DNA of 64,000 nt from Octopus vulgaris (lineage: Eukaryota): the NCBI GenBank assembly GCA_951406725.2, contig OX597814.1, forward strand, positions 224,130,001 through 224,194,000. Direction: 5' to 3'. The notes beneath the pieces are model-generated. The model did no database searches. It was not told where the DNA came from and was given only the letters and a program-made list of their open reading frames with translations. A program made the position numbers and the translations under genes. Shown here in pieces: positions 3,558-59,307 of the stretch. Each line of letters starts with the position of its first letter. Within the stretch, counting starts at the first letter, position 1.

Positions 3558-4102
3558 CAGTACCAGGCAGTGGCTCTCATGGCTGCTGATCTTAACTGAT
3601 TGGAAGTGTTATCATGTACATTGTTTTGTCTTGGTATAAAAGATGGGCTACAGCAAATATTCTGCTCAATACCACAGATTTGCTTGTCACTTTTTTGACC
3701 TTAACCAGTTGAGCATGTCCCTTAGTGGCTGACGATATGTGCATCTCTGATCACGAGCAGAAGTAGTGGGGGAGCATCATAGCCATGTGTTGAGAGGGAT
3801 TCTTTGGGGTTTGAATAATTCACCTCTGGAAACATGGGTGTTTCGTTCAACGTCCTTAAACAACCCTTATTCAGGGACTTTTTGTGCGGGATGGGTTACT
3901 CGATCTGAAGAAAATTCTAACTGGGCTCCACCTGCAAGGTCATGTGCTGTTTATCTTGATATGAGATCATCATGTCGCGCACATATGGTTGTGATGCATG
4001 TGCCTGGTGTGCCCTTATCAGACGGGTAGTCATGATGGGTATACTGGGCTTCGTATATTTTACCCCAGTGTCACTTTGATGGCATGCTCTGCTCGCTCAC
4101 TC
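3558..4102 (+). mobile_element. Non-coding ~555-bp retroelement 'X', slightly 5'-truncated copy
   Basis: Near-identical to 5142-5695. Ends CTCGCTCACTC followed by (AAT)n. Confidence 0.85.
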
Positions 4103-4127
4103 AATAATAATAATAATAATAATAATG

Positions 4128-5100
4128 ACTGTATCCAAGCAGAGGAAAGCAGCTTAGGGTGGTATGTAAATAATGCCGTGTAGCCATTGTTGAAACATAC
4201 AAAACGGTCGGCGTCATCAAAACTGAAAACTGTGTAATGAAAGAAAAGAAATGAATATCAAAAGTAAAAACATGGGAAGAAAATATACGGTCAGTTTGCA
4301 AGAGATGTGAATGCGAAGACAGATACAGAGGACCGGTGGCTATGGATGAGGAGGAGTGACCTGAAGATAGAGATAAAAGAACTTATATGCGCAGCTCAAG
4401 AACAAGCTTTAAGGATCATCTATGTGAAGTGCAGAACAGACAACACTACCGACAGCCTCAAATGCAGAATGTGTGGTGAGAGAGGTGAAACCGTATGGCA
4501 CATCTTTAGCGAATGCCCCAAATTGGCACAACGCGAATACAAAAGACGTCATTGGGATCTCTGTGGAAATCACGGCCCACAAAGAGCAAAGATGTGGTAT
4601 GAGAAAATCCCAGAAGGAGTCATCGAGAATGAGAATTGCAAAATCCTGTAGGATGCAATAATCCAGTGCGATCACCTGATCAAACATCAGAAACCGGATA
4701 GAGTTGTAGTGAATAAAAAAAGAAAGAACATGCATGATAATCGACATAGCATACCTCGGTGACAACAGTGTCAATGTGAAAGAAGAGAAAAAATAAACAA
4801 CTATGACGATTTGAAGTGGGAAATACGAAGGTTGTGGTCAATGAAGAGAGCAGACGTGATACCAATAGTAATTGGTGCAGTTGGAAGTATCAGCACTCAG
4901 CTACCAACATGGCTAAAAAAAGATTGGTGCAAGTGTGACGGTAGAACACCTATATAAATCAGCATTGTTAGGAGTTGCAAGAATTCTTCGCAGGGTTTTT
5001 GAAGTATGACTAGTAAACAAGTGTGACCTTAGTCTGCTGGCTGTGGACAGCTGACACTTTCCATCATACCCAGGAAAATAAGCTGTGAGTTTTAATCAAA
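4128..5100 (+). pseudogene. R4/Dong-clade non-LTR retrotransposon 3' fragment (CCHC zinc knuckle + restriction-like endonuclease)
   Basis: 'ICAAQEQALR', 'CRMCGERGETVWHIFSEC', 'YKRRH', 'KPD', 'PIVIGAVG'. Frameshifted and flanked by (AAT)n/(AAC)n. Confidence 0.85.
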
Positions 5101-5141
5101 TAACAACAACAACAATAATAATAATAATAATAATAATAATA

Positions 5142-5695
5142 GCCCTGATGCAGTACCAGGCAGTGGCTCTCATGGCTGCTGATCTTAACTGATTGGAAGT
5201 GTTATCATGTACATGGTTTTGTCTTGGTATAAAAGATGGGCTACAGCAAATATTCTGCTCAATACCACAGATTTGCTTGTCAGTTGTATGACCTTAACCA
5301 GTTGAGCATGTCCCTTAGTGGCTGACGATACGTGCATCTCTGATCACGAGCAGAAGTAGTGGGGGAGCATCATAGCCATGTGTTGAGAGGGATTCTTTGG
5401 GGTTTGAATAATTCACCTCTGGAAACATGGGTGGTTCTTTCAACATCCTTAAACAACCCTTATTCAGGGACCGCTTGAGCGGGATGTGCTACTCAACCTG
5501 AAGAAAATTCTAACTGGGCCCCACCTGCAAGGTCATGTGCTGTTTATCTTGATATGAGATCACCATGTCGCGCACATATGGTTATGATGCATGTGCCTGG
5601 TGTGCCCTTATCAGACGGGTAGTCATGATGGGTATACTGGGCTTCGTATATTCTACCCCAGTGCCACTTTGATGGCATGCTCTGCTCGCTCACTC
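5142..5695 (+). mobile_element. Non-coding retroelement 'X', full-length copy
   Basis: GCCCTGATGCAGTACC...CTCGCTCACTC embedded in (AAT)n on both sides. Same 5' and 3' ends as 10308-10863. Confidence 0.9.
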
Positions 5696-5765
<70 letters not shown>

Positions 5766-8362: not shown

Positions 8363-8365
<3 letters not shown>

Positions 8366-8628
8366 GGTCCCGGGTTGATTCGGGGTTAACCACAGTAAAT
8401 AAGGTACTCAATACATAGCAGAGTAAAATTAATTTATTATATAGAAGGAGCTTCTACAGGACTAGAACTGTTTCATTCAAGAGAAATCTTCAGGAGCTTC
8501 CTGAAGATTTCTCTTGAATGAAACAGTTCTAGTCCTGTAGAAGCTCCTTCTATATAATAAATTAATTTTACTCTGCTATGTATTGAGTACCTTATTTACT
8601 GCGGTTAACCCCGAATCAACCCGGGACC

Positions 8629-8631
<3 letters not shown>
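8363..8631. mobile_element. Palindromic element A1 (133-bp arms, 3-nt loop) in (TA)n
   Basis: GTAGGTCCCGGG...CCCGGGACCTAC. Arms 8363-8495 and 8499-8631 differ by one mismatch that I could see. Confidence 0.9.
8492..8548 (+). ncRNA. Type I hammerhead ribozyme motif (family A)
   Basis: Stem I AGGAGCTTC/GAAGCTCCT; core CTGAAGA 8501-8507; stem II tTTC-tctt-GAAt; GAA; stem III ACAG/CTGT. Predicted cleavage after GUA at 8539. Confidence 0.8.
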
Positions 8632-10241: not shown

Positions 10242-10279
<38 letters not shown>

Positions 10280-10307
10280 TATTATTATTATTATTATTAT
10301 CATTATT
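9751..10307. repeat. (AAT)n/(GAT)n/(ATC)n/(ATT)n trinucleotide arrays
   Basis: Direct reading. Confidence 0.9.
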
Positions 10308-10863
10308 GAGTGAGAGAGCAGAGCATGCCATCAAAGTGGCACTGGGGTAGAATATACGAAGCCCAGTATACCCATCATGACTACCCGTATGATAAGGGTA
10401 CACCAGGCACATGCATCACAACCATCACATGCGCGATTTGGTGATCTCATATCAAGATAAACAGCACATGACCTTGCAGGTGGGGCCCAGTTAGAATTTT
10501 CTTCAGGTTGAGTAGCCCATCCCGCTCAAAAGGTCCCTGAATAAGGGTTATTTAAGGATGTTGAAAGAACCACCCATGTTTCCAGAGGTGAATTATTCAA
10601 ACCCCAAAGCATCCCTCTCAACACATGGCTATGATTGCTCCCCCACTACTTCTGCTCATGATCAGAGATGCACGTATCGTCAGCCACTAAGGGACATGCT
10701 CAACTGGCTATGGTCAAACAACTGACAAACAAATCTGTGGTATTGAGCAGAATATTTGCTGTAGCCCATCTTTTATACCAAGACAAAACCATGTACATGA
10801 TAACACTTCCAATCAGTTAAGATCAGAGGCCACGAGAGCCACTGCCTGGTACTGCATCAGGGC
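10308..10863 (-). mobile_element. Non-coding retroelement 'X', full-length copy
   Basis: Reverse complement of 5142-5695. The 3' end abuts (AAT)n on its own strand and the 5' end abuts (GAT)n. Confidence 0.9.
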
Positions 10864-10865
10864 AT

Positions 10866-10923
<58 letters not shown>

Positions 10924-13217: not shown

Positions 13218-13520
13218 ACACGCATACACGCATATTAATAGTAATGGTAAGACAACAAAAGAATGAAAGAGAACTCGATATGTAAATAGAGGAATTTATT
13301 TGTAATATAATATGTGACCATTATTCGGTTGCCATAATAAAACTGCGCAAACGCGATTGCTATGGGCATTTTTACTCCTTTACTTTTTACTTCCTCCCCT
13401 TTGGTTTTTTCCCCTTATTTAACTGTCATTCTAATAGCTCTTTTTGTCTTGATAACAGTCAATTACATAGTAATTTGCCTTCGTTTAACAGTCTTTTTCA
13501 TAGCATATTTTAATTGCCTC

Positions 13521-13575
13521 GATAACTGAAGAGATGCCGGTTTGCGCCCCGACATCCGAAACTCGGAGTTTTATT
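13521..13575 (+). ncRNA. Type I hammerhead ribozyme motif (family F) in a partial inverted-repeat element 13298-13613
   Basis: Stem I GATAA/TTATT; CTGAAGA 13526-13532; stem II GATGcCGG/CCGaCATC; GAA; stem III ACTC-g-GAGT; GUU at 13570. Confidence 0.65.
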
Positions 13576-13613
13576 ATGGCAACCGAATAAATGTCACATA
13601 TTATGTCACAAAC

Positions 13614-13945
<332 letters not shown>

Positions 13946-15329
13946 GTTAGTTAGTTAGTTAGTTAGTTAATTTGGCTCAAAAGCAAATAGCAAGGCCATG
14001 TAGGGGGACATGGAGTTAAGTACAGGGTGGTGTTCATGTAAAGAGTTCAGGCCACTTGAGGTCCAGGGAGGCTTTGAACAAAGCGGTCGTCGGCATCTTC
14101 ACCATCTCGTCTGGCAGCTTGTTCCACGGATCCGCAACCCGGACGGAGAAAGCTCCTCTCCTTCGATTGAGATGAAATCGTCGCAGGTAGAGCTTTTCGG
14201 AATGACCCCGCAGCCGACGCTCCGGAGCAGGAGTGAAGAACAGCTCTTTCGAGAGGTTACACTTTCCGCTTATGATGTTGTGGGCGAGAATGAGATCACC
14301 ACGGCGGCGGCGTTTTTCAAGAGAATAAAGGTCGAGCGTCCTCAGCCTTTCTTCGTAGGACAAATTTTTGAGACCATGAACCATGCGGGTAGCCAGCCTC
14401 TGGACTCTTTCGAGGTGCTGTATGTCTTTGAGGAGATAAGGAGAAGAGGCTTGAATCCCATACTCCAATATGGGTCTCACCAGCGTGACATAGAGTGGCA
14501 GGAATATGGCTGCTGTGAGCATTCCGAATGACCGTCGAATCAAAAACAGAATTCCGAGCGCTTTGTTGGCAGCATGGACGCACTGGGCCGAAGGGGAAAA
14601 GGAGGAATCCACCAAGATACCCAGGTCCCTTACCTGATCGGTCCTCTCCAGCAGCAGACGACCCGGCTCGAAATCAAGTTGAGTTGCAGGAGTAGAGCCG
14701 ACAGGCAGATGACAGCACTTTGACACGTTCAGACACAGGTCCCAATCGTTAGACCACTTCCAAATTTGGTGGAGGCATCGACGAAGATCCTCTATATTAC
14801 CGCGAGGAGCGACCAGTTTGATATCGTCGGCAAATAGAAGGGTGTGTTGCGTGAGGTCGTCGGGCAAGTCATTTATGAAGACTAAGAACAACAAGGGCCC
14901 AAGCACTGAACCTTGAGGCACGCCACTGCTCGCACTGGAGACGTCGGACCGCGAACCATTAACTTGAACTTGGAAGGAGCGATCTGAGAGGAAGGCACCA
15001 ACCCATCGTACAATATCCGGATGGAAACTATATGCTTGAAGCTTGACAAGTAGTAGGCGGTGGTTTACCGAGTCAAAAGCTTTGGCAAAGTCCAATAAAA
15101 CGATGTCAACAGCATCACTATCATCGAGGATGCGCGTCACCAATTCTTCCATTACTAGTAAGTTGGTCAAGCATGATCTCTTCGGCACGAAGCCGTGTTG
15201 GGAATCAGTGATCGAGGCTGTGTTTAGGAGGTGGAGCATCATACTTTTCTTAAGGATGGTTTCGAACATCTTGCTGATTATTGATGTAAGGGAAACCGGT
15301 CGGTAGTTAAGCGGGTCTTCGCGGCTCCC
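13946..15329 (-). mobile_element. CR1-clade LINE, 5'-truncated, with uninterrupted RT ORF, 3' stem-loop and (TAAC)n tail
   Basis: 'NYRPVSLTS', 'QHGFVPKRSCLTNLL', 'LDFAKAFDSV', 'SGVPQGSVLGPLLF', 'LFADD', 'LERVQRLATR'; stop at 14034. 3' UTR hairpin CCATGT/ACATGG; tail at 13946-13970. Confidence 0.92.
14034..15329 (-). CDS. Reverse transcriptase domain of the CR1 LINE (partial, no native start)
   Basis: About 430 codons without a stop. The N-terminal ~50 aa of the listed 482-aa ORF are microsatellite read-through. Confidence 0.85.
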   Translation of the reverse strand, partial: GSREDPLNYRPVSLTSIISKMFETILKKSMMLHLLNTASITDSQHGFVPKRSCLTNLLVMEELVTRILDDSDAVDIVLLDFAKAFDSVNHRLLLVKLQAYSFHPDIVRWVGAFLSDRSFQVQVNGSRSDVSSASSGVPQGSVLGPLLFLVFINDLPDDLTQHTLLFADDIKLVAPRGNIEDLRRCLHQIWKWSNDWDLCLNVSKCCHLPVGSTPATQLDFEPGRLLLERTDQVRDLGILVDSSFSPSAQCVHAANKALGILFLIRRSFGMLTAAIFLPLYVTLVRPILEYGIQASSPYLLKDIQHLERVQRLATRMVHGLKNLSYEERLRTLDLYSLEKRRRRGDLILAHNIISGKCNLSKELFFTPAPERRLRGHSEKLYLRRFHLNRRRGAFSVRVADPWNKLPDEMVKMPTTALFKASLDLKWPELFT

Positions 15330-15340
15330 TATATAGATAT

Positions 15341-15377
<37 letters not shown>

Positions 15378-15525
15378 TAGACACATATATATACATACAT
15401 ACACACAAATATAGCTATTCATGTACACACAAAGCCATACGTATATGTATGTGCGTGCATGTATGTATAAATACATACACACATTCTCTTAATCTTTTAC
15501 TTGTTTCAGTCATTTGACTGTGGCC

Positions 15526-20093: not shown

Positions 20094-20095
<2 letters not shown>

Positions 20096-20543
20096 CGTTA
20101 TATTTCGGAATGGTCATATTGCCAGTTTAGCCAATAAAAACACACGCACTATATATTTGGTGTTATTTTGCTTCAGTGATATTTATTTTTTACATTAATC
20201 TTAATCTTATTTCGGCCAAAGTTCTTTCGTCACACTCCTGTGACCGCATCAGTGGTCCTTTGTTTTCTTCTCACTTATTTGTGTCTCTCCTTACTAACCG
20301 TCAGCCATTTTGTATTTCTAAATACAAAATGGCTGACGGTTAGTAAGGAGAGACACAAATAAGTGAGAAGAAAACAAAGGACCACTGATGCGGTCACAGG
20401 AGTGTGACGAAAGAACTTTGGCCGAAATAAGATTAAGATTAATGTAAAAAATAAATATCACTGAAGCAAAATAACACCAAATATATAGTGCGTGTGTTTT
20501 TATTGGCTAAACTGGCAATATGACCATTCCGAAATATAACGAT
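20094..20543. mobile_element. Palindromic element B (224-bp arms, 2-nt loop) plus one-sided tail 20544-20600, in (TA)n
   Basis: Arms 20094-20317 and 20320-20543 appear perfectly complementary. Confidence 0.9.
20379..20423 (+). ncRNA. Variant/degenerate minimal hammerhead-like motif (family B); mirrored on the minus strand at 20214-20258
   Basis: GGaCCA-CTGATGCG-GTCAC aggagt GTGAC-GAA-AG aa CT-T-TGGCC. The core deviates at A9. Confidence 0.45.
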
Positions 20544-20598
20544 ATCTGTTTCAACACACGACTTCACATAAAAAATCTTGCACAACAAATATTTAAAC

Positions 20599-20650
<52 letters not shown>

Positions 20651-32586: not shown

Positions 32587-32644
<58 letters not shown>

Positions 32645-32763
32645 GAAAATAGTAAAAAGGAAAAAACTACAGAAGGCTTGTTTTAAAGGTTAAAAAATAT
32701 ATATTTGAGTCAATATGTCTGAAGAATGTTATAAATTTTTTTCATACAATGACATAGTTTTTG

Positions 32764-32803
32764 AAGAAATGACCGGTTTCGCGTTCAGCTTTTCAAATTT
32801 CTT
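32764..32803 (-). ncRNA. Minimal type I hammerhead (family C), antisense copy
   Basis: Exact reverse complement of 32813-32852. Confidence 0.8.
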
Positions 32804-32812
32804 AAACGATTT

Positions 32813-32852
32813 AAGAAATTTGAAAAGCTGAACGCGAAACCGGTCATTTCTT
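32813..32852 (+). ncRNA. Minimal 40-nt type I hammerhead (family C) with U3-A8 core
   Basis: Stem I AAGAAAT/ATTTCTT; core TTGAAAA; stem II GC-tgaac-GC; GAA; palindromic stem III ACCGGT; GUC at 32845. Confidence 0.8.
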
Positions 32853-33014
32853 CTAAATTATGTCATTGTAAGAAGAAAATTGATAACATTCTTCAGACAT
32901 ATTGACTCAAATATATATTTTTTAACCTTTTAAAACAAGCCTTCTGTAGTTTTTTCACTTTTTACTATTTTCTATATATTCAACCACGTGCTTTCACAAA
33001 CCAACTTTCTCATC

Positions 33015-33091
<77 letters not shown>

Positions 33092-33099
<8 letters not shown>

Positions 33100-33280
33100 G
33101 GAGCTTTACAGGACTAGAACTGTTTCATTCAAAAGAAATCATCAGGAAGCTTCCTGATGATTTCTTTTGAATGAAACAGTTCTAGTCCTGTAGAAGCTCC
33201 TTCTATAAAATAAATAAATTTACTCTGCTATGTATTGAGTACCTTATTTACTGTGGTTAACCCCGACTCAACCCGGGACC

Positions 33281-33283
<3 letters not shown>
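33092..33283. mobile_element. Palindromic element A2 (same family as A1; left arm truncated)
   Basis: Right arm 33150-33283 matches 8496-8631; perfect centre GGAAGCTTCC. Confidence 0.9.
33148..33198 (+). ncRNA. Type I hammerhead ribozyme motif (family A)
   Basis: AGCTTC-CTGATGA-tTTCttttGAAt-GAA-ACAG ttctagtc CTGT-A-GAAGCT; predicted cleavage after 33192. Confidence 0.8.
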
Positions 33284-37528: not shown

Positions 37529-37627
<99 letters not shown>

Positions 37628-37678
37628 AAAATTATAAGTATATGAAAGAATGGAGTTGGACGACTAGTTAACAAATAT

Positions 37679-37773
37679 CCTTTATTCTCGACATATGTTT
37701 CGAAGGCTGCATATTCCTAATTCCGAAGGAATAAGGAGTACATTATGCAGATTTCTCATCAGGAAAATCAAGG
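37679..37773 (-). ncRNA. Type I hammerhead (family D), antisense copy
   Basis: Reverse complement of 37908-38002. Confidence 0.85.
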
Positions 37774-37907
37774 AACTTATGTCGACATCAAAATGCACAA
37801 AAAACTTTTAGCTGACCGCTCTCAAGGAGCCCATGGCGATAATCATTATCGCTCCTTGAGAGCGGTCAGCTAAAAGTTTTTTGTGCATTTTGATGTCGAC
37901 ATAAGTT

Positions 37908-38002
37908 CCTTGATTTTCCTGATGAGAAATCTGCATAATGTACTCCTTATTCCTTCGGAATTAGGAATATGCAGCCTTCGAAACATATGTCGAGAATAAA
38001 GG
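37908..38002 (+). ncRNA. Type I hammerhead (family D) with extended stem II
   Basis: Stem I CCTTgATTTTC/GAGAATaAAGG; CTGATGA 37919-37925; stem II GAA..CTGCATA/TATGCAG..TTC; GAA; palindromic stem III ACATATGT; GUC at 37991. Confidence 0.85.
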
Positions 38003-38198
38003 ATATTTGTTAACTAGTCGTCCAACTCCATTCTTTCATATACTTATAGTTTTAAAATAAACATACAAATTTCCGCACGAAGACACGTGGTCTATGCCCT
38101 ATGGACGTAGCTTCAACCGTGTTCTTTCTGATGTGAATTTGCTACCCAGGTATCGGTTATCTTTCGAATTATCCTTAATAAGATAAGTCATTCAATTA

Positions 38199-38264
<66 letters not shown>

Positions 38265-45123: not shown

Positions 45124-45264
<141 letters not shown>

Positions 45265-45528
45265 AATAAATTTAACAATTAAGGATAACTTCTTAATAAC
45301 GAATCTTAACAAGAAATTATCAGGTAGTTAGCGTGAAAAACCTCATAAAAGAAAAGAATTCGAAAATAATTTTTTTCTTTTGAACAAATTAATTATATCT
45401 ATATTGTGTAGAGGGCATTATTACACATAAATGCCTCACACTAAGAGGGACAAAGTCATTACTACCAAAATTACACCAATCATACCTAAATGCAGTTCTT
45501 CAAAGCAAGACATTTAAAAAATGAATTT

Positions 45529-45585
45529 AGTTCTGTATCACAATGATTTCACATTTAACTTACGTCTATGATCATCAGCAGAACT
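45529..45585 (-). ncRNA. Type I hammerhead (family E), antisense copy
   Basis: Mirror of 45597-45653 with one stem III change (ATCAT-t-GTGAT, pairing retained as U-G). Confidence 0.8.
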
Positions 45586-45596
45586 GATTCAGAATC

Positions 45597-45653
45597 AGTT
45601 CTGCTGATGATCATAGACGTAAGTTAAATGTGAAATCACTGTGATACAGAACT
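45597..45653 (+). ncRNA. Type I hammerhead (family E)
   Basis: Stem I AGTTCTG/CAGAACT; CTGATGA 45604-45610; stem II tCATaGAC-gtaa-GTTaaATGt; GAA; stem III ATCAC-t-GTGAT; AUA at 45646. Confidence 0.8.
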
Positions 45654-45812
45654 AAATTCATTTTTTAAATGTCTTGCTTTGAAGAACTGCATTTAGGTAT
45701 GATTGGTGTAATTTTGGTAGTAATGACTTTGTCCCTCTTAGTGTGAGGCATTTATGTGTAATAATGCCCTCTATACAATATAGATATATATATATATTTG
45801 TGTATATATATA

Positions 45813-47090: not shown

Positions 47091-47640
47091 CACATCTCAC
47101 TCCTCTGGAACTTCACCATTCAAACTGACAGAAAGATAGATGCAAATAGGCCAGACATTATATTGAAAGACTTCAGACAAAGAACATGCCTCCTCATTGA
47201 TATGACTGTCCCAATCGATATAAACGTATCCGTCAAGACCTACCAAAAACTGAGCAAATATATAGATCTTGAAATAGAAATCATCAAAATGTGGAACCTG
47301 AAGACTAAAACAATACCTGTTGTCATAGGTGCCCCTGGGAATGATAGCAAAACTCAGATGCTACCTAACTCAGATACCAGGAAACCCCAAAATGACAGAA
47401 ATTCAAAAGATAGTGCTCATGGGAACTGCTCACATCCTACGCAAAATACTATGTAATCTCAAATTTTAAAACAAACATAATTTTCGTATGGCTCTTTAGA
47501 CATTCACTAGTACAACACTAAATACAAAACCAAATATATGGCACACTAGGCATAACAACAACATGAACTTCCAACCTGTTGTCTCTTGAGGTCTCTGGGT
47601 GAGACTTGGAGCCAACTTGTACAAATGTAAATTCAAACAT
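47091..47640 (+). pseudogene. R4/Dong-clade 3' fragment (restriction-like endonuclease)
   Basis: 'LWNFTIQTDRKIDANRPDI', 'CLLIDMTVP', 'KLSKYIDLEIEI.KMW', 'IPVVIGA'; ends near AATAATAATAA. Confidence 0.85.
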
Positions 47641-47970
47641 AGAATAATAATAAAACAACGCAAACTAAACAATCCACAAACACAAAACACTCTGTATAGC
47701 AAATATCCGATAAAATAAACAACCACCCACAGGTTACATATCCAACGGAAGAAGAAAACTCGCATGACACAAACAACACATAATACAAACGCTGAATACA
47801 ACAAAGGACTGCAACCAGACACCATAGTAAAACAAGCATGCAAAACAATACCGGGAAGCGTTTTCACACTCGCAAGAACAAAAACGAACACACAATGCAG
47901 CACTCACCCCAGCAAGACGGAGGTGAGCAGGTGATGAAGTAAAAAACTTGTATGAAACTACCAAATTTTT

Positions 47971-47971
47971 T

Positions 47972-48069
<98 letters not shown>

Positions 48070-48071
48070 AT

Positions 48072-48139
<68 letters not shown>

Positions 48140-48176
48140 ATAATAATAATAATAATAATAATGATAATAATAATAA
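47971..48176. repeat. (ACT)n(GCT)n(ACT)n(AAT)n array
   Basis: Direct reading. Confidence 0.95.
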
Positions 48177-48307
48177 TGAGATTACCATGCCACGCGCACA
48201 TTCTTGTGATGCATGTGCCTGGTGTACCCTTATGAGACGGGTAGTCATGATGGGTATATTGGGCTTCGTATATTTGTATCCCAGTGATACGTATTACTCT
48301 CTCACTC
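48177..48307 (+). mobile_element. Element 'X', heavily 5'-truncated
   Basis: Matches 5553-5695 with a small deletion; (AAT)n on both sides. Confidence 0.8.
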
Positions 48308-48329
48308 AATAATAATAATGGTGATAATG

Positions 48330-48690
48330 ATTTCAATTTTTGGCACAAGGCCAGCAATTTCGGCTGAGAAGGTAAATCGATTCGATCGCTCCTAGAATTT
48401 GAGCTCAGAACGTAAAGACGAACGAAGTGCCGCTAAGCATTTTGTCCGGGGTGCTAACGATCCTGCAAGCTCGCCGCCTCAATAATAATAATAATAATGT
48501 TCCTTTTTATAAAAGGTACAAGGCCTGAAATTTGGGAGGAAGGGACTAGTCGATTACATCGACTCCAGTGTTTCACTGGTACTTAATTTATCGACCCCGA
48601 AAGGATATTTGAACTCAGAACGTAGCGACGGGCGAAATACCGCTAAGCAGTTCGTCCAGCGCGGTAAAGATTCTGCCATCACGCCGCCCT
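48330..48690 (-). mobile_element. Two SINE family 2 copies in (AAT)n
   Basis: Heads at 48460-48479 and 48670-48689. Confidence 0.75.
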
Positions 48691-48705
48691 AATAATAATA
48701 ATAAT

Positions 48706-48776
<71 letters not shown>

Positions 48777-48778
<2 letters not shown>

Positions 48779-49693
48779 GTTATAAAACAAATGAAATCCA
48801 AACTAAAAATAGAACAGCAACGAACCATGATAAAACGATGGCAAGAAAAGCCCCTTCATGGTAAATACTGCACTAAACTAAACGCAAAAGAAATAGACAA
48901 AGAAAAATCCCAGCAATGGTTGAGAAGCTCAGGACTCAAAGCAGAAACAGAGGGATTTTTAATTGCAGCACAAGACCAAAGCCTCCCCACCAGAAATTAC
49001 CAAAAACATGTAATGAAAAGAAATATTACAAGTAACTGCAGAATATGTGGAGATGGACAAGAAACAATAAATCTAGCTGCCCAGTCCTGGCTAAGAAGGA
49101 ATATATTCACAGACACGACAGAGTTAGGACCTACATACACTTGAAGCTATGCCAACATTATGGAATAACAACAGAAAAAAGATGGTATAGGCACACACCA
49201 GAAAAGGTCACAGAAAACAAGAAAGCAACCATACTCTGGGATATGCCGATACACACAGATAGAGAAATTAAGGCCAACAGACCAGATATAGTTGTCAGAG
49301 ATCATGAAGAAAAAAATGCTTTCTAACTGATGTATCAATACCGGCAGATGACAACGTGTCTCTAAAAGAAATGGAGAAACTCTCAAAATACAAAGACCTG
49401 GAAATAGAGGTAATTAGAATGTGGAATCTGAAAACAGAAACAATTCCTATCATAGTAGGTGCATTAGGCATGATAAAAAAATATTCAGACAAATACATAA
49501 CAAAAACACCAGGACTTACAAACACATATAACATACAGAAAATTGCACTACTAGGCACTGCACACATCATACGCAGAACACTTTCCATACAATAACCATC
49601 AGAGCATCACAACAAATCACAGCACATACCCAAGGCTCACAGAGCTGCGCTCGGTAGTGAAGTGAAAGCACGCTATAAAAATAAAACTACTGA
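48777..49693 (+). pseudogene. R4/Dong-clade 3' fragment
   Basis: 'WQEKPLHGKY', 'LKAETEGFLIAAQDQSLPT', 'CRICG', 'YIHRHDRV', 'RPDIV', 'KYKDLEIE', 'PIIVGALG'; flanked by (AAT)n. Confidence 0.9.
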
Positions 49694-49699
49694 ATAATG

Positions 49700-49745
<46 letters not shown>

Positions 49746-49774
49746 TAATAATAATAATAATGATGATGATGATG

Positions 49775-49839
<65 letters not shown>

Positions 49840-49862
49840 AATAATAATAATAATAATAATAA

Positions 49863-50140
49863 TCTGGAAACATGGGTGGTTCTTTCAACATCCTTAAACA
49901 ACCCTTATTCAGGGACCTTTTGAGCGGGATGGGCTACTCAACCTGAAGAAAATTCTAACTGGGCCCCACCTGCAAGGTCATGTGCTGTTTATCTTGATAT
50001 GAGATCACCATGTCGCACACATATGGTTGTGATGCATGTGCCTGGTGTACCTTTATCAGACGGGTAGTCATGATGGGTATATTGGGCTTCGTATATTTTA
50101 CCCCAGTGTCACTTTGATGGCATGCACTGCTCTCTCACTC
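49863..50140 (+). mobile_element. Element 'X', 5'-truncated half copy
   Basis: Matches 5418-5695; (AAT)n on both sides. Confidence 0.85.
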
Positions 50141-50190
<50 letters not shown>

Positions 50191-50192
<2 letters not shown>

Positions 50193-50806
50193 TTACAATA
50201 TTACAATATCAAAACTGCCGACAAATGGTATAATCACCACCCTGAAGCTGTAACTGAAGGAGAAAATGTAACGATTCTGTGGGACTTTCCAGTACATACA
50301 GACCGAACCATCAAAGCCAATAAACCGGATATTGTTGTGAAAGACCAAAACAATAAAGTTTGCTTATTGATCGACATGAGCATCCCCTGTGATCATAATA
50401 TCTCGGCGAAAGAGTTTGACAAGCTCAGAAAATATAAAGACCTGCTCATTGAAATTGAGAAAATGTGGCATCTCAAGGCGGTTACAATACCAGTGATCGT
50501 AGGAGCACTAGGAATGATCAAGAAGGGAACCGAAAATTATATGAGAATGATCCCTGGCTTACCATCCCTGCAAGAAGTGTAAAAGATTGTCTTAACTGGT
50601 ACATCACACGTATTGAGAAGAGCATTGTCGATGTGAGAACTATTACTACCCATGTATTTTAATTTAACTTTAAAAAAAAATGAACGAACTAGTGAGTTTA
50701 GTTTAATGGCCTACCAATGTATACTATGAATTTCTTTGCCCTAGGAGTCGGGAAGACACTCGGCAAGAAATGGAAGCAAATTTGAAAGAAGAAGAAAAAA
50801 ATAGAT
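50191..50806 (+). pseudogene. R4/Dong-clade 3' fragment
   Basis: 'ILWDFPVHTDRTIKANKPDIVV', 'CLLIDMSIP', 'KYKDLLIEIEKMW', 'IPVIVGALG'; flanked by (AAT)n. Confidence 0.9.
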
Positions 50807-51762: not shown

Positions 51763-52819
51763 GTTCATATTCATAAATACATGTATGTATTTATGTATGT
51801 ATGTATGTATATATATGTGTGTGTGTATGTGTGTTTATCTTTCTCTCTCTCTCTCTACATATATATATATATGCATGCATGTGCGTAGGCATGTACGTAA
51901 CTGTGTATGAATTTATTTATTTATGCATACTGTATCAGATACTTCCTTTTTTATTTTCATGTATTCACCAAGTGGTATTTCCTGCTTTTAGTTGAAGTTC
52001 TCTGGTGAAACTAGCGATCTGTAAGTTAATTAGTCAGAAACCCATATTTCAACAGACCCTAGCCACTATGTGGTTCTTGTGCCAACACAGTTTAGTCAAG
52101 GAAACACACATTATAATCTCCCTAACAAAACGTCTTTCAACCAATGTTTCCTTTTTATAACATCATAATTCGTTGTCTTGAATAATTTTTAATCTCTGTA
52201 ATCGTATGTATATATGCATGTATGTAGGCATGCATACATACACAGACACACACACACAAACACACACACTTACAAAAGATTGGGAAAATCTTTGGTATTA
52301 TTTAATCACCATTACACATGTTTCGTCTGCTAATAGGAATTACAAACTTGTACCAATAGTAGAAAACATAAGTTTTCTCCTATTAGAAATTCTTCATATA
52401 GAGAATATTCGATTCTCTGTCTGAAGAATTTCTAATAGAAGACACCTTACATGTTTCCTACTACATGTACAGTTCTATAATTCCTATTAGGAAATGAAAA
52501 ATGTATAATGGTGAATAAATAGTCCTTTCTACTATAGGCACAAAGCCTGAAATTTGTGGGGAAGTGTCTACTCGATTACATCGACCCCAGTGTTCAACTG
52601 GTACTTATTTATCGACTTCGAAAGGATGAAAGACAAAATCGACCTTGGAGGAATTTGAACTCGGAATGTAAAGACGGAAGAAATGCTGCTAAGCATTTTG
52701 CCGGACGTGTTACCGATTCCCCAATCTCTTGTTTTGATACATAATTACTCTGCTGAAAATATTTTCTAGTATTTTCAACTCTTAGGTATAAGATTGGGTT
52801 TGAAACTTGTTGATAATCA

Positions 52820-57109: not shown

Positions 57110-59307
57110 AACTGTGCAACAAATTTCAGGTTTTAAAAAAAGTACAAGTTAAGTAAGAATTGTTTCTGGGTCGAAAAATTGTCCTGATTCTGATTCTGAC
57201 CTTTATTTCTCCAGATTAGGAACCGTTTTCCTGTACCATGTATAATATACTGTATAATATACTGCATAATATTGCGTATTGAACACAACATTGCAAATAC
57301 TGAAAGTTACAAACAACAAAACAAAAATTTAGTTGGTATAACAAAACATATATTGGTTATGAATTAAAAACACACCTGTCTGTTTAAACAACTTTTGTCC
57401 TTCTAAGCCTCTTGTGCGGAGTGTGATCTTTTTTTATACCTCAGCAGTAGTCTATCAACATGCCAGGGTTCCATTTTCCTTTGAATCGTCACGCCATCAC
57501 TGAAATATCCTGATAGAATCTTTCGCCATGTTCATCACTCACATCACCAAGATTTTCCGCAAAAAATTCCAAATGAGAGTGAAGCACATGACCTTTTAGA
57601 GACATGTTACATCCCATATCATGATAATGACTCAGTAGATCATTCACAATTCGCACATAGTCTTCTGGAACGATGGTTGCCCAGGAAGTTATCGCAAACT
57701 TTCTTGAATGACTCAAAGGCAAGCTTCTCTTTTCTCTTGAGATGTGTGATGAAGGTTTCATCAAGTATAATTTTTCGAATTTGGGAACCTATGAAGAAAC
57801 CTTCTTTAATTTTAGCTTGACTCAGGGAAGGGAACTTTTCTGCAAGATATGCAAATGCGGAGGATTCCTCGTCCAAGGCTTTCACAAATTGCTTAAAAAA
57901 ACCAAGTTTGATATGCAAAAGTGGTAAATAAATTCTATCACTTTTCACAAGTGATTTGTGCATGATGTTGTGTCTTCCTTGCTCAATTTCATCTCAGATC
58001 GGCCAATCCTTGCGTACATAATGTACAGCTCTTGCTCTGAATTTGCATAAGCACAGGAAGAAGCAAAATTTAGTATAGCCAAGCTGAAGGCCAGTAACCT
58101 TAAAATCTGCACAAATATGCCAGGTATGGTCATCATGCTTGTTAGAATTGCTTTCAGATTTTTATATGTTTCTTTCATGGTTGTGCTATAAGCTATGGGA
58201 ACAGAAGGCAGAGTGTTACCATTGTATAGCAGAACAGCTTTGATGCTGTCCTTGGATGCATCTATGAAAAGTCGCCCGTTGGTTTTATCCTATGGTATTT
58301 CCAATTGCTCAAACATTTCAGTGATGTCATTACAAAAGCAAAAGTCATCCTTCATGGCGAATAATGCAAGCAGATCCTCTGTACGTTTTCTGTACAGTGT
58401 TATCTTCACTCCTTTCTCAAGAAGATTACGTTCTTGAAGCCTTGATGCCAGAAACTCACTTTTCTCTTTGGTTAAATAGAGATCCCTGCAGAAGTCATTT
58501 AGAACCTCTTGAGAAAATGGTATTGGTTTATTCTCACTTTCTGGATCATTGGGCTCTACACATTCACCACTGGAATGTTCATCTGCACTGCTGGAACTCT
58601 GCATTTCTTGACCTGGAGGTTTGGGCACAGATAAATTTTCTAAGTACTCTACTGAGTGCATTGCTGATTGCAAATTTGGGTAAACAATGTGTTTCTTTTT
58701 CTTTGCTGTAGTACAGCCTGTAAAGTCATGGTGACAGAAATAGTAATCCCTAGAATGATCTTTCTGCTCACGCCAAATCAATGGCACACCAAACTTCATG
58801 TGAACATTTTTTCCTGCATCCCAGGCACTCAATGTCTTCACACATGTAAGGCAACACACATGAGGAGTCCATGACTTATCCTGGTCTCCTAAGTAACAAT
58901 CGAAGTACGCCTTGTATATTTTCTTGATATGGCCTGTAATACTGCGCTTTTATTTAGCATAGGTCAATTCCCCACAGATATAACAGAATCTGTTTGGATT
59001 ATTTTTGAACTGTCTTGCACTCTATCTTGAAAACAAATAAGATCTGAAAGATAAAAAAATAACATTAAACGCAAGCTTTGAATCACATTGTAGGTGTTAC
59101 TAAGATTGGTCTCTAGCCCTGGATTGAAGCCCATTTTACAATGCGGTAAAGAAATTTATTTAATAATAGTGACAAAAAGAGTATACAGTGACAATTCTGT
59201 AGAAACCGTGCCTAATTCAACAAAAAGGTCAGAAATGGATTTCCCATGGCATTTTGCATATAAAAATGGCCACAGATCTTCTGTGCTTTTTTTAATGTTG
59301 CACAGTG
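57110..59307 (-). mobile_element. Full-length decayed Chapaev3-like (CMC) DNA transposon
   Basis: TIRs (a)ACTGTGCAACA / TGTTGCACAGTG, subterminal inverted TTCTGACCTTT...ATTAGG, and TTA target duplication at 57107-57109 and 59308-59310. Confidence 0.8.
57400..59022 (-). pseudogene. Chapaev3-like transposase pseudogene
   Basis: 'FCYICGE', 'LGDQDKS', 'MKFGVPLIWREQKDH', 'LASRLQERNLL', 'LPLLHIKLG..KQFVKAL', 'KIKEGFFIGSQIR', 'NMSLKGHVLHSHL.FF.ENLGDVSDEHGERFYQDI'. Several stops and frameshifts. Confidence 0.85.

What the first reader, a model, noticed from the sequence alone, without database searches (positions are those of the whole stretch)
37626..38202. Palindrome D: canonical hammerheads on both strands and a snap-back scar at the centre
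Seen: fully canonical core with 11-nt stem I, long stem II, palindromic ACAUAUGU stem III and GUC. The 20-nt spacer contains its own hairpin GCGATAAT-C-ATTATCGC overlapping the right arm, so the true turn is at 37844 with a 7-nt insertion in the left arm. Inference: the footprint of self-primed fold-back DNA synthesis with a template slip. This is the best candidate for an active ribozyme.
Basis: partly seen in the sequence, partly recalled or inferred. Interest (0 to 1): 0.7.

Follow-up and report, generated by a model that had tools for sequence, protein, structure and literature searches.

The report
Mirror-image Penelope retroelement stump with ribozyme
This is most likely the ribozyme-bearing end of a common jumping gene, inserted as two head-to-head copies in a TA repeat, a known pattern for Penelope-like elements; the odd seven bases at its centre are missing from one arm rather than added to the other.

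Summary
The palindrome and the hammerhead are real: 198-bp perfect arms (37633-37830 / 37851-38048), a type I hammerhead on each strand (cut sites 37991+, 37690-), the turn at 37843/44, a one-sided 146-nt tail and (TA)n on both sides. This matches the published layout of Penelope-like element (PLE) insertions. The window holds six more such palindromes. Contigs from four public runs show a diverse, many-copy family with no listed variant in the catalytic core. Both arms share a base rare in the family, which favours one template per insertion. Fold-back is plausible and already proposed for PLEs, but the order of events is unresolved. Activity is doubtful as proposed: stem III is 2 bp and needs a dimer, and read-through RNA folds into one long hairpin that hides the ribozyme. 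No RT or endonuclease gene could be linked, so PLE membership rests on architecture. One open lead: 5 of 5 inversion-type joints have an arm ending near the same site, possibly an RNA 5' end.

The parts
37578..37623 (.). left (TA)n tract, the presumed target
   Evidence: preceded by a (TACA)n array
37626..37843 (-). short (left) arm, element sense on the minus strand; matches family contigs at the 7-nt site and at the mirror of 38049; ends in an AT-rich spot against the TA tract
37678..37774 (-). mirror copy of the type I hammerhead, core starts 37762, C17 at 37690
37831..37837 (-). the 7 nt that the right arm lacks (register can slide between two GC dinucleotides); family sequence, not an insertion
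   Evidence: loose ends before 37851 in runs X1, X5, X10; exact match to the minus strand 37831-37843
37843..37844 (.). head-to-head turn; both arms end within 2 nt of the same family position, T37843 fits either arm, C37844 is the single central base
37843..38055 (+). long (right) arm, element sense on the plus strand, with a 7-nt deletion at about 37851 and G at 38049
37907..38003 (+). type I hammerhead: stem I 37907-37918 / 37992-38003, core 37919-37925, stem II 37926-37979, GAAA 37980-37983, palindromic stem III 37983-37990, predicted cut after 37991
   Evidence: family variation, test
38056..38201 (+). one-sided 3' extension (tail), 146 nt, family sequence
   Evidence: contigs cover it and one spans 37975-38101
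38202..38256 (.). right (TA)n tract

Best explanation
D is a protein-less stump of a hammerhead-bearing Penelope-like retroelement: about 360 nt of its terminal repeat (pLTR plus tail), inserted into a (TA)n tract with an adjacent inverted, shorter copy. Shown: anatomy, many-copy family, conserved core, polarity of the 7-nt gap, a rare base shared by both arms. Inferred mechanism: a PLE RT/GIY-YIG protein acting in trans nicks (TA)n and reverse-transcribes the RNA from near its 3' end. The second arm is made from the same molecule during that event, either by a U-turn onto the new cDNA or by a second priming from the other target strand that stops at the same RNA end. The short arm stops at an internal AT-rich spot, leaving the tail on one side. 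The 7 nt were lost from the right arm by slippage between two GC dinucleotides 8 nt from the turn, during synthesis or later. The hammerhead is inherited pLTR equipment that would cut best as a dimer or with protein help, and it is probably silent at this locus. My split for the order of events: long arm first with later deletion 0.4, two cDNAs ending at one RNA end 0.35, short arm first with a slip 0.25.
For: Inverted truncated copy, one-sided tail, (TA)n target and pLTR hammerhead are the published PLE layout (PMC8557442 passages; PMC3846280). Paired hammerheads on opposite strands 100-700 bp apart and palindromic helix III are reported for PLEs (PMC4209133). 20 of 24 listed runs, in 8 studies, hold half or more of the sampled words. 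1680, 1215, 407 and 162 contigs were laid in 4 of 4 runs. 0 of 19 listed variable places in 37889-38025 fall in the 21 core places, P = 0.033 (3 of 43 table rows hidden). Six more palindromes lie in the window; 6 of 6 well-preserved ones (D included) abut TA runs on both sides and 5 of 6 have a one-sided tail. Arms of 8497 and 33149 each share their own locus's letters at two sites, and both D arms have C at 38022 where about 99.9% of summed contig depth has T. A purified PLE protein extends both target strands and starts internally on the RNA (PMC11167929).
Against: No RT or GIY-YIG frame could be tied to D: 0 of 245 scanned frames in the window hit a GIY-YIG family, and the laid contigs showed only 30 upstream letters. 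The 146-nt tail is far longer than the 30-40 bp in PMC8557442. No target-site duplication can be read in (TA)n. The empty site was not seen. Of 13 stem variants checked, 6 break a pair unless a partner also changes, and phase is not visible in contigs. Arm identity could also come from gene conversion. Contig depth is not copy number.
Confidence: 0.85

Rival explanations
1. D is a fixed non-autonomous palindromic element (MITE-like, or a palindromic PLE derivative) whose centre is inherited; the 7-nt gap and the other junctions are later decay of an unstable palindrome.
For: 4 of the 7 joints listed start at 37840-37843, as expected if one centre were shared and the other arm later lost pieces. 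The two copies of the 8497/33149 family turn at the same AGCT site.
Against: Contigs in 3 of 4 runs continue into non-palindromic upstream sequence. The ends are unequal (tail on one side), unlike terminal inverted repeats. 8497 and 33149 differ in centre by one base and in short-arm length (134 against 55 nt). A hammerhead has no role in a DNA transposon.
Confidence: 0.08
2. D is a remnant of a non-LTR retrozyme (tandem hammerhead repeats copied through circular RNA) that became inverted by DNA repair.
For: Type I hammerhead with a short palindromic helix III and a unit of a few hundred bases; retrozymes are argued to derive from PLE pLTRs (bioRxiv 10.64898/2026.07.22.740005, first fifth read).
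Against: No tandem copy in the window, and none of the 7 listed joints goes back head-to-tail. Six other palindromes of five unrelated-looking families show the same head-to-head layout.
Confidence: 0.04
3. The palindrome is a sequencing or assembly artefact (fold-back reads) at an ordinary single pLTR copy.
For: Near-perfect arms; no laid contig spans the stretch, and raw reads across this locus were not available.
Against: The arms differ by a 7-nt gap and a substitution, and the left arm has family sequence that the right arm lacks. Other palindromes in the window show graded decay (0 to 16 mismatches). All are oriented head-to-head, and inverted joints occur in independent runs.
Confidence: 0.03

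Closest known systems
EN+ Penelope-like element insertions with inverted pLTR and one-sided tail (PMC8557442; PMC3846280)
   Same: Head-to-head inverted truncated copy, tail at one end, pLTR hammerhead, (TA)n target as in Neptune, Hydra and Naiad clades, palindromic junction read as self-priming.
   Different: D has no coding body at all, both arms end at the same place, and the tail is 146 nt rather than 30-40. Clade not determined; a canonical hammerhead argues against Naiad.
PLE type I hammerheads (PMC4209133)
   Same: Canonical core, G10.1-C11.1 pair, palindromic helix III suited to dimers, pairs of motifs on opposite strands 100-700 bp apart, high variability in stems.
   Different: D has an unusually long stem II (54 nt) and a long stem I; Rfam models do not detect it.
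Poseidon element of Anolis in vitro (PMC11167929)
   Same: Internal starts of reverse transcription downstream of the hammerhead explain a one-sided tail; extension from both target strands; AT-rich targets.
   Different: There the ORF starts at stem II, whereas the ATG at 37922 in D opens only 25 codons. The parts of that paper read here do not explain inverted junctions.
Non-LTR retrozymes (bioRxiv 10.64898/2026.07.22.740005; PMC7229834, listing only)
   Same: Short, non-coding, type I hammerhead, PLE-related.
   Different: Retrozymes are tandem head-to-tail arrays; D is a head-to-head pair.

Membership tests
Type I hammerhead ribozyme | Core CUGANGA ... GAAA ... UH with stems I and II closing the junction | tested here: met
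   stems I and II pair at probability 0.89-0.96 in 37900-38010
Type I hammerhead ribozyme | Core conserved across copies while stems vary | tested here: met
   0 of 19 listed variable places in 21 core places, P = 0.033; 3 rows hidden, so modest support
Type I hammerhead ribozyme | Helix III stable in the monomer | tested here: not met
   pair probability about 0.02; hairpin +2.4 kcal/mol against -7.0 for the intermolecular duplex; typical of metazoan dimer-type motifs
Type I hammerhead ribozyme | Self-cleavage after C17 | not testable with these tools
   only contigs were laid; they cannot show RNA ends
Type I hammerhead ribozyme | Match to an Rfam hammerhead model | tested here: not met
EN+ Penelope-like element | ORF with PLE reverse transcriptase and GIY-YIG endonuclease joined to this repeat | tested here: inconclusive
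   none in the window (0 GIY-YIG hits in 245 frames); no genome held; upstream family sequence exists but only 30 letters were shown
EN+ Penelope-like element | Adjacent inverted 5'-truncated copy, head-to-head | tested here: met
EN+ Penelope-like element | One-sided tail | tested here: met
   38056-38201; longer than the published 30-40 bp
EN+ Penelope-like element | Hammerhead within the terminal repeat, in sense, upstream of the 3' end | tested here: met
   cut site 64 and 210 nt before the two arm ends
EN+ Penelope-like element | Insertion into (TA)n (Neptune, Hydra, Naiad) | tested here: met
   both junctions; about 1% of positions lie within 5 nt of a TA-tract end
EN+ Penelope-like element | Dispersed many-copy family | tested here: met
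EN+ Penelope-like element | Target-site duplication or empty allele | not testable with these tools
Non-LTR retrozyme | Tandem head-to-tail units each with a hammerhead | tested here: not met
MITE / TIR DNA transposon | Equal inverted termini and a fixed internal structure | tested here: not met
   unequal ends, and the family continues upstream of the centre

The most novel reading that the evidence does not exclude
These stumps are not random 5' truncations but complete copies of a short, capped, pLTR-only transcript whose first base lies at about 37844-37845, on an initiator-like TCATT. Each insertion is built by running to that RNA end, adding a C opposite the cap, turning onto the new cDNA (here with a 7-nt slip) and finishing on a second, tail-primed cDNA. 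D would then record the order of steps of PLE integration, and several such SINE-like pLTR families would be spreading as head-to-head dimers in this genome. Support is thin: 5 of 5 inversion-type joints have an arm ending at 37840-37851, with a known bias toward that region; 8497 and 33149 turn at one site; 3 of 4 tailed palindromes with a spacer start it with C on the short-arm strand (noticed after the fact). At D the C also matches family sequence.
Probability: 0.2. Interest if true: 0.6.

Novelty: new member of a known kind. Interest (0 to 1): 0.3.

Why it matters
The structure itself is known. Its value is as a natural record of an unsolved step: how PLEs make inverted copies, which PMC8557442 names as an open task. 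Tiny, young, near-perfect palindromes with both junctions intact are the best material for that. Seven in 64 kb suggest that a whole genome of this animal holds thousands, enough to separate fold-back from two-strand priming by counting turn positions and which arm carries new errors. If the turn is a fixed RNA 5' end, these are SINE-like PLE derivatives rather than broken copies. As a ribozyme D is ordinary.

Tried and rejected
7-nt insertion in the left arm: rejected. Two ribozymes cooperating on one RNA: rejected, they are mirror copies. Rfam miRNA and snoRNA hits over D are below gathering score and reflect the hairpin only. No whole genome is held. Two metagenome scans found nothing. One viral-contig hit is a lone 22-nt match with no hammerhead, taken as chance. 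No RNA holder listed on record; run X10 is only guessed to be RNA, so expression is untested. The fall in contig depth near 38049-38062 would fit a common short-arm end, but depth swings as much elsewhere, so it was not used. Translating both arms gave no frame over 30 codons from an ATG. Pfam scan of 245 frames (55 codons or more, low-complexity frames dropped) found one RT above cut-off and no GIY-YIG. The bacterial promoter scan was at chance level and is not relevant here. Similarity of D to the 45591 palindrome is limited to a short stretch at the tail end. Searches of earlier findings by place and by sequence were empty. Literature searches found no paper on such mini-palindromes in cephalopods; most subscription papers and Repbase are outside the library, and no supplements were read, so this does not show absence from print.

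Full report
Setting. The window is AT-rich DNA (GC 0.28-0.43) packed with microsatellites, short interspersed repeats and LINE fragments. It looks like octopus DNA to me; that is recall, not a test. No whole genome is held.

Observation. D has perfect arms of 198 bp, 37633-37830 and 37851-38048, around 20 nt. With one mismatch they reach 37626 and 38055. The left arm then meets (TA)n, while the right arm runs 146 nt further to 38201 before (TA)n. Aligned about 37844, the arms match except for 7 nt present only on the left and one substitution. Each arm holds a type I hammerhead pointing away from the centre. In 30 shuffled windows a canonical core with a stem I of 6 bp or more arose 0.07 times on average. 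The fragment 37900-38010 folds with z = -2.8. Rfam does not detect it.

The family. 20 of 24 listed runs, from 8 studies and 4 organism labels, hold half or more of the sampled words. I laid 37811-38212 on contigs of 4 of them: 1680, 1215, 407 and 162 contigs fit, at a wide spread of identity. Of 19 listed variable places in 37889-38025 none falls in the 21 core places (P = 0.033; 3 of 43 rows hidden). Of 13 stem variants checked, 5 repair or improve a pair (37929, 37930, 37994, 38004, 38005), 1 keeps a pair, 1 (37964) could be compensatory with 37946, and 6 break a pair. Phase is not visible.

The centre. Among the 24 loose-end rows shown (159 hidden), runs X1 (8 contigs), X5 (2) and X10 (1) have letters before 37851 that end in CTCATTATCGCCATGG. 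The last 13 of these match the left arm exactly, 37831-37843 minus strand. One X10 contig is identical to the window over 37851-37987 and carries 70 such upstream letters. So the left arm is family-type, the right arm has lost 7 nt between two GC dinucleotides, and the family continues upstream as ordinary non-palindromic sequence. The left arm ends at the family's ATTATC; the right arm starts 2 nt earlier, at TCATTATC. T37843 fits both arms, and C37844 matches family sequence in the right arm's sense. At 38049 the left arm agrees with about two-thirds of contig depth. At 38022 both arms have C where about 99.9% of depth has T, so both came from one source molecule or locus, or were homogenised later. 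The runs may be other individuals or species, so 'rare' is relative.

Neighbours. Self-comparison shows seven palindromes, centred at 8497, 20318, 32808, 33149, 37844, 45591 and a decayed one near 52410. The six well-preserved ones abut TA runs on both sides, have centres of 0-3 nt, and five have one-sided tails of 39-146 nt. 32808 passes the strict hammerhead descriptor with a U3-A8 core, a variant reported for PLEs. 8497, 33149, 45591 and 20318 show hammerhead-like cores by eye but failed the descriptor. 8497 and 33149 are one family; they differ at two sites in the shared part, and each locus has its own letters in both arms.

What is known. PMC8557442 (passages) describes for PLEs an inverted 5'-truncated copy, a 30-40 bp tail at one end, hammerheads in pLTRs and (TA)n targets. 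PMC3846280 (passages and Discussion) reads palindromes at inverted junctions as self-priming and notes initiator-like motifs in a pLTR. PMC4209133 (first half of text) reports hammerhead pairs on opposite strands 100-700 bp apart, palindromic helix III, and low activity that needs dimers. PMC11167929 (first half) shows a PLE protein extending both target strands from internal RNA sites, with a hammerhead that needs the protein and is dispensable for insertion. PMC13282606 (passages) lists recently active Penelope-like families in Octopus vulgaris, with no mention of palindromes or hammerheads in the main text. An earlier AI follow-up reached a similar reading in a shark; it is a lead, not support.

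Mechanism. On the plus strand the left flank leads into antisense sequence, and on the minus strand the right flank does too, so either arm can be a target-primed cDNA. Three orders fit. (a) The long arm is made first, turns with the native TGA as loop, and is copied as far as an AT-rich spot; the 7-nt gap must then be later. (b) Two cDNAs, one from each target strand, stop at the same RNA end and join by one base pair. (c) The short arm is made first, turns, slips 7 nt after 8 bases and finishes on a tail-bearing cDNA. The data do not choose among them.

A lead. Of 7 listed joints, 4 join a left-arm end at 37840-37843 to 37915, 37922, 37988 or 38127, one joins 37851 to 38030 on opposite strands, and 2 are plain skips. 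All 5 inversion-type joints thus have an arm ending near D's turn; the one with known filler stops within 1 nt of it. Caveats: my reference held only 33 nt of left arm, which favours this class; three of the four are flagged as possibly hiding letters; later deletions in palindromes with a shared centre would look the same. The site is an initiator-like TCATT. The initiator consensus and copying of the cap as C by reverse transcriptases are recalled, not tested.

Activity. In 37900-38010 stems I and II form (0.89-0.96) but stem III does not (about 0.02); the active fold costs 3.0 kcal/mol. The stem III palindrome gives -7.0 kcal/mol as a duplex between two RNAs against +2.4 as a hairpin. In 37851-38201 stem I falls to 0.06, and in the whole palindrome all stems fall to 0. 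D is a plausible dimer-type ribozyme and probably silent in read-through RNA from this locus.

Verdict. A real feature and a new member of a known kind. It works like a PLE stump insertion (0.85); formal membership lacks the protein link. Interest 0.3.

Noticed in passing
window 8363-8631 and 33095-33283: Two palindromes of one family, turning at the same AGCT site just before a hammerhead-like core with a GUA triplet. 8497 has two full arms, 33149 a 55-nt short arm. The centres differ by one base.
   Followed up: partly
window 32640-33015: Palindrome with a compact type I hammerhead bearing the U3-A8 core variant in both arms (32820+, 32796-) and a 39-nt tail.
   Followed up: partly
window 20094-20599: Perfect 224-bp arms with a 56-nt tail; degenerate hammerhead-like motif near 20386 with a 6-bp stem II and a changed core.
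   Followed up: partly
window 45262-45781: Palindrome with a 139-nt tail on the left and a hammerhead-like core directly after the turn; its tail end shares a short stretch with the tail end of D.
   Followed up: partly
window 52299-52521: Decayed palindrome (16 mismatches, 4 gap columns in 111) with remnants of a long-stem-II hammerhead; not flanked by TA tracts.
   Followed up: partly
window 13515-13615: Lone hammerhead-like motif (core at 13526) about 40 nt before a long (TATC)n array, with no inverted partner; failed the strict descriptor.
   Followed up: partly
window 14037-15488 (-): 484-codon open frame with a reverse transcriptase domain (Pfam RVT_1, E 6e-32); looks like the 3' end of a CR1/L2-type LINE by recall.
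   Followed up: no
window 3558-4126, 5115-5760, 10243-10891, 47091-50582: Several 94-96% identical copies of a LINE 3' end that stop in (AAT)n tracts; weak zf-RVT match at 4268-4648.
   Followed up: no
window 57640-58949 (-): Broken run of open frames with transposon-like protein sequence and no Pfam match above cut-off.
   Followed up: no
laid contigs at window 37866, 37878, 38014, 38107-38125, 38158-38159: Loose ends show several related subfamilies with different sequence upstream of the hammerhead and in the tail.
   Followed up: no
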